A DNA stretch of 27,649 nt from a virus (taxonomy: Duplodnaviria > Heunggongvirae > Uroviricota > Caudoviricetes), in IMG/VR virus record IMGVR_UViG_3300049174_000031. One strand, 5' to 3'. Below, one piece after another: positions 5,844-8,873 of the stretch. The notes below the pieces were generated by a model. The model had not been told where the DNA came from. It saw only the letters and a program-made list of their open reading frames with translations, and made no database searches. Made by a program: the position numbers and the translations under genes. Each line of letters starts with the position of its first letter. The first letter of the stretch is position 1.

Positions 5844-6605
5844 TTACGCGGCGGCGGCCAGTTCGGCCGCGATCTCGCGCACGTTGGCGAGCATGGTCGG
5901 CACGTTCTTGGCCGGGCCGAACCGGAAGTAGGTGCCGTCGGCGCTGTCGCAGCCCAGAAAGAGCGCGGCCATGCGCAGGCGCTTGCGGGAGTTCACCCGG
6001 CCCATGTGGACCCACTTGCCGCGGCGCTTGGCCTCCTTGACCAGCGGAGCGCAGGGGACCTCACCCTTGGGGGTGCCGTCGAGCGCGATGCCGAACGGGC
6101 CGATCTTCCAGTCGTCGGACCCGCCGATGAAGATGGCGTCGATGTCGTCCCACGGGACCTCGTCGGAGGTGCAGCCGTCTTGGATGACGAACGCGACCTT
6201 GAAGCCCAGCGCCTTCATCGGGCCGATCCACTTCTTGGCCAGCTCGGCCGTCGCGACGTGGTCACCGACCGGGAAGAACTCGCCCTTGACGTTGGCGAAG
6301 CGGTCGTCCACCACGGGGGAAACGGTGCCGTCCTCGGCCTTGAAGAACCAGTTCAGCACGTCTGGGATCACGACGAACTCGGCCAGGTCGGCGTCCTTCG
6401 CCTGGGCCTGCAGCCAGCTCCACCAGCCCGCCCCGTTCCACGGGATGCCCTTCTTGGCCCGCGACAGGCTGAACACGCCGTTGTCGCCGCACCAGCGCAC
6501 CCGCGGGCGCAGGTTGCCCTGCTCGGGGGTGTCGATGTAGGCGATCTCCCGGCCCGAGTGCATGTGCGGAAGGGCGGTGGCGTTGGGGTTTCCGAAGTAG
6601 ATCAT
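5844..6605 (-). CDS. TGT/DpdA-like TIM-barrel protein (candidate base-exchange enzyme)
   Basis: 253 aa from ATG 6605 (strong RBS). Motifs DNGVF, PDV, QDG, FIGGS, HMGRVNS and DSADGT are collinear with TGT-family DSGGF/QG/GG/HxLG/DxxD; no C-terminal Zn site. Confidence 0.6.
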   Translation of the reverse strand: MIYFGNPNATALPHMHSGREIAYIDTPEQGNLRPRVRWCGDNGVFSLSRAKKGIPWNGAGWWSWLQAQAKDADLAEFVVIPDVLNWFFKAEDGTVSPVVDDRFANVKGEFFPVGDHVATAELAKKWIGPMKALGFKVAFVIQDGCTSDEVPWDDIDAIFIGGSDDWKIGPFGIALDGTPKGEVPCAPLVKEAKRRGKWVHMGRVNSRKRLRMAALFLGCDSADGTYFRFGPAKNVPTMLANVREIAAELAAAA

Positions 6606-6622
6606 GGTGGTCCTCCTGGTTG
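6603..6622 (-). repeat. conserved start-associated 20-mer CAACCAGGAGGACCACCATG (also at 7630-7649, 9786-9805, 18700-18719)
   Basis: Four exact copies at gene starts that follow intergenic gaps; variants before 5466, 8873, 10160, 17484 and 20628. Confidence 0.85.
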
Positions 6623-6650
6623 GGGTGGCTCTTTGTTCGTACATACAGTT

Positions 6651-6712
6651 CAACGAGAACGTCTTACGGTTTGTTCCCGATGTCTTTACGAATAGGTGTG
6701 ATTGTCACCACA
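6651..6712 (-). promoter_or_regulatory. ECF-sigma (SigH/SigE-type) promoter with CRP-like box, copy 1
   Basis: GGAAC (6677-6673), N17, CGTTG (6655-6651); TGTGG-N6-TCACA at 6712-6697, 19 nt upstream of the -35. Confidence 0.75.
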
Positions 6713-6714
6713 CA

Positions 6715-7632
6715 TCACGCGGCCAGCGGGGCCAGCTGGGCCCCGGCCGCGATGGCCTCGGCGACCGAGCCGCCGCCCTGCTTGTAGCCGAAGCCGGTGA
6801 CCTGCTCGACCTCAAGGACGCGCTGGGCCAGCACCGGGTTGTGGCAGGCGGCGATGGCGGCGTCGGCTTTGCTACCGAACACGCAGAAGGCACAGCTCAA
6901 ACGGCTCATGCCCAGGTCGTAGGCCTTGTGGTACGGAGCACCGGAGAGCCGGATCTTCGACCACACCATGGTCTCGGTCCAGTTGTGGATCGGGAGCCAG
7001 GTGTCAACCTGCTTGAGGCTGTTGCTCGCGCCGTGGTCGATCTCGTAGGTGGCCTTCTTGGCGCGGTCAGCGGACTCCTCGCCACGCAGGCCCATGACGT
7101 TGAGAATGCGGACGGGGTGCACGGTCTTGCCGTCGTCCATGACGGCCGGGGCCAGCTCGCGGCCGGTGGCCACAACCTCGTTCTTGAGGGCGGTCATCAG
7201 CACGCGCACCGGGCCGCGCTTGAGGTCGCTGGTGCACCAGCGGTTGCCCGAGGTGGGCCACGCCGGGCTCATCTTCTCGCGCTTGCCCTCGGCGACCTCG
7301 GCCTCGAACTTGGCGGCCTTCTCAAGCACGCGGTCCAGCAGGCCCGAGCCGGGCTTGCGGACGATCTCGAAGCGGGGCACGCCGTAGAAGTCAGCCTGCT
7401 CGCGGGCGATCTCGGCGGTGCCCTCCCACTCCATACCGTCCAGATCGGCGTGCACGGCCACGACGCGGTCCAGAATGCCGAGGCGCTTGGCGATACCAAC
7501 GACCCACTCGACCATGACCTGGGAGTCCTTGCCGCCCGACGTGTTGAGCAGAATCACGTCGTAGTCGGTGAGATTGGGCATACTGCCCGCGGTGACGGTG
7601 GTGAGGTACTGGGCCTGCTTCTTAGTCGCCAT
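6715..7632 (-). CDS. PAPS-reductase/DndC-like PP-loop ATPase
   Basis: 305 aa from ATG 7632; SGGKDS PP-loop, WCTSDLK, GLRGEESADR, RLSCAFC. Confidence 0.88.
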   Translation of the reverse strand: MATKKQAQYLTTVTAGSMPNLTDYDVILLNTSGGKDSQVMVEWVVGIAKRLGILDRVVAVHADLDGMEWEGTAEIAREQADFYGVPRFEIVRKPGSGLLDRVLEKAAKFEAEVAEGKREKMSPAWPTSGNRWCTSDLKRGPVRVLMTALKNEVVATGRELAPAVMDDGKTVHPVRILNVMGLRGEESADRAKKATYEIDHGASNSLKQVDTWLPIHNWTETMVWSKIRLSGAPYHKAYDLGMSRLSCAFCVFGSKADAAIAACHNPVLAQRVLEVEQVTGFGYKQGGGSVAEAIAAGAQLAPLAA

Positions 7633-7670
7633 GGTGGTCCTCCTGGTTGCTCTTTGTCGTACATACGGTT

Positions 7671-7732
7671 CAACGCACTTGTCTTTACGTTTGTTCCCGG
7701 CGTAAAGACAAGTGCGTGTGAACTGCACCACA
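7671..7732 (-). promoter_or_regulatory. ECF-sigma promoter with CRP-like box, copy 2 (contains a 17-bp inverted repeat)
   Basis: GGAAC (7697-7693), N17, CGTTG (7675-7671); TGTGG-N6-TCACA at 7732-7717, again 19 nt upstream; perfect IR at 7673-7689/7701-7717. Confidence 0.75.
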
Positions 7733-7733
7733 A

Positions 7734-8873
7734 TCAGGCGATGGCCTCGGCCCACTTGGCGTCGTACTGGGCCTTGGTGCCGACGTTGTGCTTGTCGGCG
7801 ACGGTGGCGGGGGCCACGACGTAGAACTCCTCGACCTTGACGGGGACCTCGCCCTCGGTGCGGGGCCGAACGACCTCAACCATGGAGCGGGCCTCGGCGT
7901 CGGCCAGCTCGGGCTCGGACACGCGGGTGATCGACCTGATCCAGCGGTAGCCGGTCTTGCCGTTCTTCTCCCACCGGGTGCCGATCCGGCGCAGGTGGTA
8001 GATGGCGTGCGGAGTGGCGTCCAGCTTGGCTTCCAGGGCGTCCAGCGCGGCCTGGTTGCCGTCCTCAACGATCCGGTCGCGCAGGCTCTTGCCGCTGGTG
8101 AGCAGGGGCTGGTTCTCGTTGAAGAGCAGGCTGACGTGCTCCACGAACAGGGCGTGGGCAGCTGCCTCGGGGTACTGGCGGTACATGCCCAGAATCCGCT
8201 CGGTGCTGGTCACACCGCAGCTGTTCTTCTTGCCGTTGAAGGCGAAGGGGCAGAACACGCAGGCGCTCTTCTCCCACTTGACGCCGGTCACCGAGAAGAT
8301 GAACTCCTCGCACTTGGCCCGGTCCCAGCCCCAGGCGATCAACGGGTACTCGCCCGTGCGGACGGCGCTGTTGCCCTTTTCGGTGTCCTCCTTGGCCCGC
8401 TTGCCCTCCTCGGCCTCGAAGCCCATGACGTGACGGAACTTGGTGTCCGCGCCCAGGATGCGGGCGATGGTGGCGTCCAGCGGCTCGCCCTTGGCCTTGA
8501 TGGAGCACAGCCGGTTGTTGCCCGACTGGGGGACGGTGGCGCTGGTCAGCAGCTCGTCGGAGAGCTTCCAGTCGCCCTTGAGGAACAGCTGGGTGGGAGC
8601 GTTGGTGTCGGAGAGGACCGTGATGCCCTGGTCCTTGGTCGCACCGCCGCGGGCGATCTGGATGTAGCGGATGCCGTGCTCGCGCATCAGGGGCAGGATG
8701 TGGTCCTCGACGGCCTGGCCGGTGAAGTCCCACTCGTCGCCGGTCATGGCGGTGAGCACGATGAGGTCGCTCAGCTCGAAGTCACGCGAGCTGGGCTCGG
8801 TGATCCAGCGCAGCAGAATCGCGGTCGAGTCCACGCCGAGGCCGTAAGAGAGAATCACGGGGGTGTTGGTCAT
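7734..8873 (-). CDS. divergent PP-loop (adenine nucleotide alpha hydrolase / PAPS-reductase-like) protein
   Basis: 379 aa; VILSYGLGVDSTA PP-loop variant, RLCSIKAK, MGFEAEE..R, SACVFCPF. Confidence 0.75.
   Translation of the reverse strand: MTNTPVILSYGLGVDSTAILLRWITEPSSRDFELSDLIVLTAMTGDEWDFTGQAVEDHILPLMREHGIRYIQIARGGATKDQGITVLSDTNAPTQLFLKGDWKLSDELLTSATVPQSGNNRLCSIKAKGEPLDATIARILGADTKFRHVMGFEAEEGKRAKEDTEKGNSAVRTGEYPLIAWGWDRAKCEEFIFSVTGVKWEKSACVFCPFAFNGKKNSCGVTSTERILGMYRQYPEAAAHALFVEHVSLLFNENQPLLTSGKSLRDRIVEDGNQAALDALEAKLDATPHAIYHLRRIGTRWEKNGKTGYRWIRSITRVSEPELADAEARSMVEVVRPRTEGEVPVKVEEFYVVAPATVADKHNVGTKAQYDAKWAEAIA

What the first reader, a model, noticed from the sequence alone, without database searches (positions are those of the whole stretch)
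5844..8873. Insulated three-gene cassette (two PP-loop/Fe-S-type ATPases and a TGT/DpdA-like barrel): candidate new DNA modification pathway
Three adjacent enzyme genes are bounded by terminators (8972-9000 and 5811-5836) and share one promoter design. Both PP-loop proteins have the same Cys layout, a C-x-x-x-(L)K motif plus a C-terminal CxxC (WCTSDLK/SCAFC and LCSIKAK/ACVFC), as in Fe-S-binding PAPS-reductase/DndC-type enzymes. That superfamily adenylates substrates for sulfur or amide transfer (DndC/SspD, TtuA, QueC). The third protein carries TGT-like catalytic motifs; DpdA swaps guanine for deazaguanines in phage DNA. No folE/queD/queE/queC is present in the window. Inference: the PP-loop enzymes build or decorate an unusual base, or thiolate nucleic acid, and the transglycosylase installs it as an anti-restriction modification.
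Basis: partly seen in the sequence, partly recalled or inferred. Interest (0 to 1): 0.8.

Follow-up and report, generated by a model that had tools for sequence, protein, structure and literature searches.

The report
Co-regulated PP-loop pair plus mini-DpdA cassette
A large actinobacterial phage carries three genes under three copies of one unusual promoter: two iron-sulfur-type ATP-using enzymes and a stripped-down relative of the enzymes that swap guanine in DNA for 7-deazaguanine. All three probably alter nucleic acid to escape host defences, but whether they form one new pathway is still open.

Summary
Three minus-strand genes lie between two strong hairpins: g1 7734-8873, g2 6715-7632 and g3 5844-6605. 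Each has its own copy of a ~100-nt upstream element (CRP-like box, GGAAC-N17-CGTT, AACCAGGAGG) found nowhere else in about 31 kb.

g1 and g2 are distant paralogs of the PAPS-reductase/DndC superfamily. Both have a PP-loop and three invariant Cys (C-x4-K and S-C-x-x-C), but neither is a member of DndC, CysH, BrxP or QueC.

g3 is a TIM barrel whose nearest named folds are Cap10, TGT and DpdA. It matches no Pfam model and lacks the Zn site. Context supports a DpdA-like role:
- 54 of 80 viral g3 loci have a YhhQ-type preQ0 transporter gene, usually directly upstream.
- One member of the window's own g3 clade sits in a QueC-QueE-QueD-g3 operon.

The single-pathway reading is only partly supported.
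- For: TGT-like genes (g3 type or true DpdA) lie near g1 in 10 of 98 g1 loci. The g1-g2-g3 order recurs in a Microtetraspora genome. These genomes lack QueC, QueD and YhhQ.
- Against: at least 6 of 10 near-complete g1 phages have no TGT-like gene. g3 is usually without g1/g2. The shared loci are DNA-modification islands with C5 methylases and Mom.

This scan had flagged similar pairs on other DNA.

The parts
8972..9000 (-). Intrinsic terminator of the upstream gene (9014-9394). It is the upstream boundary of the cassette.
   Evidence: The 14-bp G+C-rich stem folds at -31.2 kcal/mol (z -4.6) and is followed by UUUUU.
8874..8971 (-). Promoter and leader of g1. It holds a CRP-like box TGTGG-N6-TCACA (about 8955-8970), an ECF-type GGAAC-N17-CGTT (8907-8935) and the ribosome-binding site AACCAGGAGG.
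7734..8873 (-). g1, 379 aa. The N-terminal domain (residues 1 to about 225) has the PP-loop fold with a variant P-loop S-Y-G-L-G-V-D-S. C123-x4-K128 and S203-x-C205-x-x-C208 are invariant. The C-terminal domain, about 150 aa, is uncharacterised.
   Evidence: - PHROG 424 at 5e-12; no Pfam, NCBIfam or PADLOC match.
- The family has 992 cluster representatives; alignment A2.
- The AF2 model has pLDDT 92.
- Best fold matches: PAPS reductase Z 12.2, GMP synthetase 11.1, APS reductase 10.6, NcsA 10.1.
7633..7733 (-). Promoter and leader of g2, of the same design. CRP-like box at about 7717-7732; GGAAC-N17-CGTT at 7669-7697.
6715..7632 (-). g2, 305 aa, a PAPS_reduct-domain PP-loop protein. It has a canonical SGGKDS motif, C133-T-S-D-L-K138 and S246-C247-x-x-C250.
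   Evidence: - PF01507 at 1.1e-13, 52 bits against a cut-off of 22.5.
- BrxP 8e-13, DndC 2e-4 and CysH 3e-5, all far below their curated cut-offs.
- 44.5% identical to Streptomyces phage Gilgamesh gp116.
- Family invariants.
6606..6714 (-). Promoter and leader of g3, of the same design. CRP-like box at about 6697-6712; GGAAC-N17-CGTT at 6649-6677.
5844..6605 (-). g3, 253 aa, a minimal DpdA/TGT-like TIM barrel. It is the long form of PHROG 15826, the family that actinophage annotators call 'DpdA-like tRNA-guanine transglycosylase'.
   Evidence: - PHROG 15826 at 3e-51; no Pfam match.
- 37-40% identical to Weirdo19 gp40, Aoka gp40 and GreaseLightnin gp55.
- The AF2 model has pLDDT 92.
- VIA fold matches: Cap10 Z 14.6, TGT 14.5, ArcTGT 13.6, DpdA 12.5.
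- The named BFVD matches are mostly phage queuine tRNA-ribosyltransferases.
- Family context: YhhQ and QueC/E/D genes.
5811..5836 (-). Stem-loop after g3. It is the downstream boundary and probably an I-shaped terminator without a U tract.
   Evidence: -31.6 kcal/mol, z -4.9.

Best explanation
The cassette is a co-regulated set of nucleic-acid-modification genes, most likely serving anti-restriction. It is built from two modules that can each work without the other.

Module B is g3, a minimal DpdA-type base-exchange enzyme. By analogy with DpdA and TGT it would remove guanine from phage DNA through an aspartate nucleophile and insert a 7-deazaguanine-type base. That base would come from the host or from genes outside the window.

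Module A is g1 plus g2, two distantly related PP-loop ATP pyrophosphatases with a three-Cys site of the APS-reductase/DndC type, presumably binding a [4Fe-4S] cluster. They would adenylate an oxygen on a nucleic-acid or base substrate and replace it with sulfur or nitrogen. They would act on DNA on their own, as their relatives must in phages and conjugative elements that have no transglycosylase.

In this phage the three genes are switched on together. Each has its own copy of one promoter type: a CRP-like box plus an ECF-sigma-type -35/-10.

Shown here: gene structure, shared promoter, folds, conserved motifs and family contexts. Inferred: DNA as the target, the chemistry, Fe-S binding, and the independence of the two modules in this phage.
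For: g3 as a DpdA-like enzyme:
- TGT-family proteins are the top named folds.
- 54 of 80 viral g3 loci carry a Vut_1/YhhQ gene, usually abutting g3 on the upstream side. YhhQ is the preQ0 transporter (PMC5372724).
- L196 lies in the window's own g3 clade and reads QueC fragment, QueE (TIGR04508, 241.6 bits, cut-off 240), QueD, then g3, with abutting stops and starts.

Separability of the two modules:
- Of 10 g1-bearing viral genomes that are at least 90% complete, 3 have Pfam DpdA, at most 1 has a weak g3-like hit, and at least 6 have neither.
- Of 80 g3 viral loci, only 3 hold a weak g1-like gene and 3 a weak PAPS-reductase-like gene.
- The closest contextualised relatives of the window's g3 stand without g1, g2 or YhhQ (L010, L012, L013, L193-L195).

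A DNA-directed guild:
- g1 neighbours are ParB_N proteins (21 loci), C5 DNA methylases (8), DUF3560-methyltransferases (6), SSB, ligase and relaxase.
- A Mom-family gene lies between g1 and DpdA in L029.

PP-loop and Fe-S features.

Co-regulation.
Against: - The promoter element is confined to exactly these three genes in about 31 kb. Other likely anti-defence genes in the window, such as the Tad4-like gene at 3551-4015, do not have it. That fits one pathway better than a loose guild.
- The trio of g1, g2 and a TGT-like gene recurs in L084 (same order), L043, L029 and G001. The TGT-like gene comes from three different clades or families.
- No base supply is visible. QueC, QueD and YhhQ are absent from complete relatives that carry g1/g2 plus DpdA. 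QueC is absent from 4 of 5 host genomes and YhhQ from all 5.
- No biochemical activity is known for any of the three families.
Confidence: 0.42

Rival explanations
1. One pathway. g1 and g2 convert a salvaged or host-derived purine or 7-deazapurine into a new base. Examples are ATP-dependent amidation, nitrile formation or thiolation of a carboxyl or carbonyl group, as QueC does to CDG or YcfA does to guanine. Alternatively they convert the base after insertion. g3 installs the base in phage DNA. In this reading g1/g2 take the place that YhhQ or QueC hold next to other g3 genes.
For: - The identical promoter is restricted to the three genes, and the cassette is insulated.
- g1-g2-g3 occur in the same order in L084, whose g3 belongs to a separate, well-supported clade (100/99). 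The linkage therefore arose at least twice.
- g1 lies within 3.3 kb of, and co-directional with, a true DpdA in L043, L029, L070, L076 and L069.
- Streptomyces phage Gilgamesh has a g2-like gene, then gp115, then DpdA.
- Five of the six weak PP-loop hits in g3 loci lie within about 1.5 kb of g3.
- Strong g1 homologs and YhhQ never share a locus: 0 of 10 TGT-linked g1 loci have YhhQ, against 54 of 80 g3 viral loci.
- QueC, the normal partner in preQ0 cassettes, is itself a PP-loop enzyme.
Against: - g1, with or without g2, occurs in at least 6 of 10 near-complete phage genomes that have no TGT-like gene.
- g3 relatives work without g1/g2.
- The shared loci also hold unrelated DNA-modifying genes.
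- TGT-like genes are not significantly commoner in g1+g2 loci (4 of 24) than in g1-only loci (6 of 74).
- g1 and g2 resemble PAPS/APS reductase more than QueC (Z 12.2 against 7.7).
Confidence: 0.3
2. g1 and g2 are a DndC/SspD/BrxP-like DNA backbone phosphorothioation enzyme pair that uses host cysteine desulfurase. g3 is unrelated cargo.
For: - The PP-loop plus three-Cys site matches what is described for DndC (PMC10853773).
- g2 has weak matches to BrxP (8e-13) and DndC (2e-4).
- g1 is often next to ParB-superfamily genes, as DndC is next to DndB.
Against: - The score against the DndC equivalog is 16 bits, with a cut-off of 290.
- There is no conserved Cys dyad.
- No dndA, dndD, dndE or sspABC-like genes were seen among the scanned ORFs of the window.
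- g1 matches no defence-system model at all.
Confidence: 0.1
3. The target is not DNA. g3, with or without g1/g2, would modify tRNA: the phage encodes tRNAs, a peptidyl-tRNA hydrolase and a Ro60 homolog. Alternatively it would conjugate a nucleobase to a protein, as the Cap9 (PP-loop) and Cap10 (TGT-like) pair does in type IV CBASS.
For: - Cap10 is the top structural match of g3 (Z 14.6, tied with TGT at 14.5). Cap9 is among the matches of g1 (Z 9.4).
- Cap9 and Cap10 carry out nucleobase-protein conjugation (bioRxiv 10.1101/2025.04.06.647259).
- RNA-metabolism genes lie in the window.
Against: - No CD-NTase gene was found among the scanned ORFs.
- g1/g2 are not of the QueC family.
- g3 lacks the Zn subdomain and the extra domains present in tRNA-dependent TGTs.
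- All characterised phage members of this superfamily act on DNA (PMC6884629; bioRxiv 10.1101/2023.04.13.536721).
- The Z scores do not separate Cap10 from TGT.
Confidence: 0.08

Closest known systems
Phage DpdA 7-deazaguanine DNA-modification systems (Rosebush, CAjan and 9g types; Hutinet et al. 2019, PMC6884629; DpdA3/DpdA4 in bioRxiv 10.1101/2023.04.13.536721)
   Same: - The barrel is TGT-like.
- The family is linked to deazaguanine supply genes: YhhQ in 54 of 80 loci, and QueC-QueE-QueD-g3 in L196.
- The setting is a phage, and the presumed role is anti-restriction.
   Different: - g3 matches none of PF23859, PF01702 or PF20314.
- It is about 100 residues shorter and has no Zn site.
- No preQ0 synthesis or import gene lies in the window; two PAPS-reductase-like genes stand in that place.
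Singleton phage DpdA (group 3 of Hutinet 2019, e.g. Mycobacterium phage Orion)
   Same: - It is a transglycosylase-like gene with no visible base supply, in a phage of a host group that lacks the preQ0 pathway.
- Orion DNA carried none of the 7-deazaguanines assayed (dPreQ0, dADG, dG+, dPreQ1) and no dQ (PMC6884629).
   Different: g3 belongs to a different sequence family: Orion was not among the tblastn hits. In the window it is also co-regulated with two PP-loop enzymes.
YhhQ plus mini-DpdA pairs in actinophages (e.g. GreaseLightnin gp54-gp55, and Aoka gp38 with gp40)
   Same: Same protein family as g3, at 37-40% identity.
   Different: Those pairs carry an importer gene directly upstream. 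The window's clade is a long form with two insertions and has no importer.
DndC / SspD / BrxP (PP-loop enzymes of DNA phosphorothioation and type 4 BREX)
   Same: Same PAPS-reductase superfamily, PP-loop, three-Cys Fe-S-type site, and association with ParB-superfamily genes.
   Different: - Scores are far below the family cut-offs.
- There is no DndC Cys dyad.
- There are no DndA/D/E, SspABC or BREX partners.
- The genes are carried by a phage or mobile element rather than a host defence system.
Cap9-Cap10 of type IV CBASS (QueC-like plus TGT-like; nucleobase-protein conjugation)
   Same: A PP-loop enzyme is paired with a remodelled TGT-fold enzyme. Cap10 is the top fold match of g3.
   Different: - g1/g2 are of the PAPS-reductase type, not the QueC type.
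- There is no CD-NTase.
- The setting is a phage, not a defence operon.
ParB-like plus PAPS-reductase-like pairs of prophages and plasmids (IbrB/IbrA, YbdM/YbdN; recalled from my own knowledge, not checked here)
   Same: The same superfamily sits next to ParB-domain genes on mobile elements, with function unknown.

Membership tests
TGT/DpdA superfamily | TIM barrel most similar to TGT-family structures | tested here: met
   - VIA-align: Cap10 Z 14.6 (rmsd 3.3, 205 aligned), TGT 14.5, ArcTGT 13.6, QTRT2 12.9, DpdA 12.5. Unrelated barrels reach about Z 13, so the margin is small.
- Atlas: a TGT cluster is the first named match, with TM 0.63.
- BFVD: the named matches are mostly phage queuine tRNA-ribosyltransferases.
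- Foldseek against the PDB gave only generic barrels.
TGT/DpdA superfamily | Match to family sequence models (PF01702, PF23859, PF20314) | tested here: not met
   - g3 has no Pfam match at E up to 1, and none of the 64 family members matches these models.
- hhalign against 7 true DpdA sequences gives probability 0.5%.
- A family profile finds no PDB chain.
TGT/DpdA superfamily | Three active-site aspartates (Asp95, Asp130 and Asp256 of S. Montevideo DpdA; PMC10164549) | tested here: inconclusive
   - D41 in A-D-N-G-x-F, D82 in P-D-V and D223 are invariant. D220 in D-S-x-D-G is conserved in at least 90% of sequences.
- These motifs fall in the same order as D-S-G-x-F, the mid-barrel Asp and A-D-S of DpdA in the hhalign register.
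- That alignment is not significant, and no superposition at residue level was available.
TGT/DpdA superfamily | Structural Zn2+ site | tested here: not met
   g3 has four scattered Cys, none of them invariant, and no Cys/His cluster. The true DpdA sequences keep H-x-x-C-x-N-C.
TGT/DpdA superfamily | Genomic linkage to 7-deazaguanine synthesis or import genes | tested here: met
   This holds at family level: YhhQ/Vut_1 in 54 of 80 viral loci, and QueC-QueE-QueD-g3 in L196. It does not hold in this window or in other g1-linked loci.
DndC | Score above the equivalog model TIGR03183 | tested here: not met
   g2 scores 16.1 bits against a cut-off of 290.4; g1 has no match.
DndC | PP-loop plus three-Cys [4Fe-4S] site | tested here: inconclusive
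   The motifs are present and invariant in both families. Cluster binding cannot be shown by sequence.
DndC | DndC-specific cysteine dyad, and DndA/D/E partners | tested here: not met
   There is no conserved Cys pair beyond the three. No such partners were found among the window ORFs scanned.
PAPS/APS reductase (CysH) | PF01507 domain | tested here: met
   g2 scores 52 bits against a cut-off of 22.5. g1 qualifies only through PHROG 424 (5e-12) and fold (Z 12.2 to 7rge).
PAPS/APS reductase (CysH) | C-terminal catalytic E-C-G-[LI]-H cysteine, and equivalog scores | tested here: not met
   Neither protein has an ECG motif. The cysH, APS and PAPS reductase models score 18-24 bits against cut-offs of 154-254.
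QueC | PF06508 match | tested here: not met
   Neither g1 nor g2 matches at E up to 1. The fold match to QueC (Z 7.7) is lower than to PAPS reductase.
Type IV CBASS Cap9/Cap10 | Adjacent CD-NTase, and a QueC-family Cap9 | tested here: not met
   No CD-NTase family was found among the 23 scanned ORFs. g1/g2 are not of the QueC family.

The most novel reading that the evidence does not exclude
g1 and g2 are a new kind of Fe-S PP-loop enzyme pair that turns a host-derived or salvaged purine or 7-deazapurine into a base not yet seen in DNA, for example a thio- or amidino-derivative. The mini-DpdA g3 then inserts that base into phage DNA. This would be a hypermodification route that needs no QueC, QueD, QueE or YhhQ and that recurs in actinobacterial phages and conjugative elements.
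Probability: 0.25. Interest if true: 0.8.

Novelty: new variant of a known kind. Interest (0 to 1): 0.55.

Why it matters
None of the three protein families has been studied experimentally, and two of them are large:
- The g3 family has more than 2,000 homologs and over 500 IMG/VR loci.
- The g1 family has about 1,000 clusters at 50% identity across Actinomycetota, Cyanobacteria, Acidobacteriota and others.

The context evidence found here places the short 'DpdA-like' family of actinophages among 7-deazaguanine enzymes. This covers the YhhQ gene in 68% of viral g3 loci, usually directly upstream, and the one QueC-QueE-QueD-g3 operon.

It also sharpens an open question from Hutinet et al. 2019. 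What do transglycosylase-like genes do in phages whose hosts neither make nor import preQ0?

The recurrent, promoter-level coupling to two Fe-S PP-loop enzymes gives a small, directly testable three-gene set. Testing it could reveal a new DNA modification. If not, it would show that PAPS-reductase-like phage genes are a separate DNA-modifying activity.

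Tried and rejected
- Nucleotide search of the cassette against 50,697 phage records found no match. A tblastn search with g1 also found none.
- No whole genome is held for the window. The Logan and JGI contigs that carry it cannot be searched whole. I therefore could not check whether the phage has queD, queE, folE or yhhQ elsewhere.
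- Foldseek of g3 against the PDB gave only generic TIM barrels at TM 0.4-0.5.
- A g3 family profile against PDB sequences gave nothing.
- hhalign of the g3 family against 7 DpdA sequences was not significant.
- Scanning all 64 g3 family members against Pfam gave no TGT, DpdA or DUF6610 hit.
- BLASTP of g1 against g2 gave only E 0.027 over the P-loop region. Their paralogy rests on shared fold and motifs.
- The complex prediction for g1 with g2 returned 'no answer'. It is not evidence either way.
- The simple sigma-70 promoter and terminator scan found nothing in 5500-9400. The promoters are of another type, and the hairpins fall outside its rules.
It was repeated with 14 rows.
- Literature searches for DpdA together with PAPS reductase in phages found no paper describing this combination.
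- The conserved small ORFs between g1 and DpdA in some loci (DUF3145-like, cluster 606, Gilgamesh gp115) gave no informative family match.

Full report
**Setting.** The window has 65% G+C and all real genes lie on the minus strand. It is a fragment of a large actinobacterial phage.
- A DUF7297 virion protein is 52-58% identical to proteins of Mycobacterium phages Phrappuccino, Tonenili, Alice and Catera.
- The window also holds DnaB, a helicase, a PTH2-type peptidyl-tRNA hydrolase, a Ro60/TROVE homolog, a NUDIX protein and a Tad4-like protein.
- No whole genome is held.
- Identical copies of the cassette sit on a 93.6-kb Logan contig and a 13.1-kb JGI contig.

**The observation.** Three ORFs lie head to tail. 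Independent gene calls on the identical contigs give 379, 305 and 253 aa. That sets g1 at 7734-8873, g2 at 6715-7632 and g3 at 5844-6605.
- The gene upstream of g1 ends in a hairpin of -31.2 kcal/mol (z -4.6) followed by a U run.
- g3 is followed by a hairpin of -31.6 kcal/mol (z -4.9) without a U run.
- No comparable hairpin lies between the three genes.

Each gene is preceded by a ~100-nt element that is 81% identical among the three copies. Each copy holds three parts:
- a TGTGG-N6-TCACA box, which resembles a CRP site;
- GGGAACAA-N-CGTTGAAC, which contains GGAAC-N17-CGTT, the pattern of ECF sigma promoters such as mycobacterial SigH/SigE (this assignment is from my own knowledge);
- AACCAGGAGG before the ATG.

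The motif occurs three times in the window against 0 expected. There is no fourth copy in the roughly 4 kb beyond the window's left end that the overlapping contig L007 covers. The cassette is therefore real, insulated, and driven by a promoter type private to these three genes in about 31 kb.

**g1 and g2.**
- g2 is a PAPS_reduct domain protein (PF01507, 1.1e-13) with a canonical SGGKDS loop.
- g1 matches no Pfam, NCBIfam or PADLOC model. It matches the phage PAPS-reductase group PHROG 424 (5e-12).
- The AF2 model of g1 has pLDDT 92. Its first ~225 residues have the PP-loop fold. The best matches are PAPS reductase Z 12.2, GMP synthetase 11.1, APS reductase 10.6, NcsA 10.1, LarE 9.8, YcfA 9.7, Cap9 9.4 and QueC 7.7.
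- The remaining ~150 residues of g1 were not matched.

- g1 family (62 sequences): invariant G11, G13 and S16 in S-Y-G-x-G-x-D-S, then C123, K128, S203, C205 and C208.
- g2 family (17 sequences): invariant S32, G34, D36, S37, C133, K138, S246, C247 and C250.
- This matches the C-C-x-x-R-K and S-x-G-C-x-x-C motifs that bind the cluster in APS reductase (from my own knowledge). It also matches the three-Cys 4Fe-4S centre described for DndC (PMC10853773).

Neither protein is a member of a named family.
- DndC scores 16 bits against a cut-off of 290.
- CysH and APS reductase score 18-24 bits against cut-offs of 154-254.
- BrxP reaches only 8e-13.
- There is no ECGLH motif and no Cys dyad.

**g3.**
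- It has no Pfam or NCBIfam match. It belongs to PHROG 15826 (3e-51).
- It is 37-40% identical to actinophage proteins annotated 'DpdA-like tRNA-guanine transglycosylase'.
- The family is large: 2,160 hits and more than 519 IMG/VR loci.
- The AF2 model (pLDDT 92) is a TIM barrel.
- In an exhaustive structural comparison the top rows are Cap10 (Z 14.6), TGT (14.5) and ArcTGT (13.6), with QTRT2 (12.9) and DpdA (12.5) close behind. Unrelated barrels reach about 13, so the margin is small.
- In the ESM Atlas the first named neighbour is a TGT cluster (TM 0.63). A DUF6610 cluster also appears; DUF6610 is DpdA4 (bioRxiv 10.1101/2023.04.13.536721).
- Among viral models the named matches are mostly phage queuine tRNA-ribosyltransferases, plus proteins of nt-1 and phiST.
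- Sequence-profile tests all failed, and the Zn site is absent.
- The motifs A-D-N-G-x-F, P-D-V, Q-D-G, G-G-S, H-x-G-R-V-N-S and D-S-x-D-G fall in the same order as D-S-G-x-F, Q-G, G-x-G-S, H-G-F-G and A-D-S of true DpdA.

**Context settles what kind of enzyme g3 is.**
- In 80 viral g3 loci, a ~190-aa gene lies beside g3 in 54, directly upstream in all but a few. It is Vut_1/PF02592, the family of the preQ0 transporter YhhQ (PMC5372724).
- The window's g3 falls in an 18-row clade (support 95/88) of long-form proteins that lack YhhQ.
- One member of that clade, L196, reads QueC fragment, a nucleoside deoxyribosyltransferase-like gene, QueE (TIGR04508, above cut-off), QueD, then g3, with abutting stops and starts.
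- The family is thus tied to 7-deazaguanine supply in two independent ways, as expected for a DpdA-type enzyme.

**Do the three genes work together?** Evidence for:
- Among 98 g1 loci (17 viral, 80 genomic, plus the window), g2-family genes lie within 8 kb in 21-24. True Pfam DpdA lies within 8 kb in 6, and g3-family genes in 4.
- L084 (a Microtetraspora MAG) repeats g1-g2-g3 in the same order.
- L043 reads C5-methylase, g1, g2, one ORF, DpdA.
- L029 reads g2, g1, two ORFs (the second Mom), DpdA.
- L070 has g1 next to DpdA.
- G001 has g1, DpdA and a g2-like gene on one strand.
- The g3 genes linked to g1 form two distant clades. Three weak g1-like genes and three weak PAPS-like genes also occur in g3 viral loci, and five of those six lie close to g3, in other clades.
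- Complete relatives with g1/g2 and DpdA have no QueC, QueD or YhhQ.
- Of five host genomes with g1 plus a TGT-like gene, four lack QueC and all lack YhhQ.

Evidence against:
- Of ten g1-bearing viral genomes at least 90% complete, at least six have no TGT-like gene.
- 74 of 80 g3 loci have no PP-loop gene.
- The nearest contextualised relatives of the window's g3 stand alone.
- The shared loci are islands of DNA-modifying genes: C5 methylases, a DUF3560-methyltransferase, Mom and ParB.
- PP-loop enzymes cannot make the deazapurine ring.

**Reading.** I put two separable, co-regulated modification modules slightly ahead (0.42) of a single pathway (0.30). DndC-type phosphorothioation (0.10) and a non-DNA target (0.08) trail. 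The single-pathway version remains the most interesting reading that the evidence does not exclude.

**Earlier work.** Earlier notes of this scan flagged similar PP-loop plus DpdA-like pairs on other DNA, with mixed verdicts. Another reader flagged the same promoters in this genome. I found no paper describing the combination.

Noticed in passing
window 8955-8970, 7717-7732, 6697-6712 (-) with 8907-8935, 7669-7697, 6649-6677 (-): The three promoters pair a CRP-like TGTGG-N6-TCACA box with an ECF-sigma-type GGAAC-N17-CGTT. This suggests transcription by a host SigH/SigE-type or a phage-encoded sigma factor, under cAMP-receptor-like control.
   Followed up: partly
window 13205-13277 (-): A tRNA gene with anticodon CUA (an amber suppressor; ARAGORN labels it 'Pyl'). 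Rfam tRNA score 49 bits. It lies next to a helicase and a PTH2 peptidyl-tRNA hydrolase gene.
   Followed up: no
window 18955-20628 (-) and 20696-20765 (-): A Ro60/TROVE plus vWA homolog (E 1e-50 and 1e-39), with a tRNA-like element (Rfam tRNA, 39.5 bits) just upstream. This may be the tRNA-like module of a Y-RNA-like partner.
   Followed up: no
window 3551-4015 (-) and 4411-4959 (-): A Tad4-like gene (type I Thoeris inhibitor family, 2.9e-10) and a NUDIX gene (NDPSase_N plus NUDIX on the identical contig) lie downstream of the cassette. They look like candidate counter-defence genes. They do not have the cassette's promoter.
   Followed up: no
L113-L192 (IMG/VR), L001 5532-6089, L003 5143-5670: A YhhQ/Vut_1 transporter gene accompanies the mini-DpdA gene in 54 of 80 viral loci, directly upstream in all but a few. 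In GenBank these genes are annotated only as hypothetical or membrane proteins (GreaseLightnin gp54, Aoka gp38).
   Followed up: yes
L196 2-2355: A metagenomic phage contig reads QueC (cut by the contig end), a nucleoside 2-deoxyribosyltransferase-like gene, QueE, QueD and a g3-family gene in one tight operon.
   Followed up: partly
L016-L112 (g1 loci): The g1 family is widespread in Actinomycetota, Cyanobacteria, Acidobacteriota, Chloroflexota and Heliomicrobium. It typically sits beside ParB_N genes, SSB, DNA ligase, relaxase and orphan DNA methylases, the pattern of establishment regions of conjugative elements. L066 and L028 carry tandem g1 paralogs.
   Followed up: partly
L069 9391-10092, 10592-11407; L076 9214-9900: A DUF3145-like ORF of about 230 aa recurs between g1 and DpdA in two actinobacterial genomes. 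Its function is unknown.
   Followed up: no
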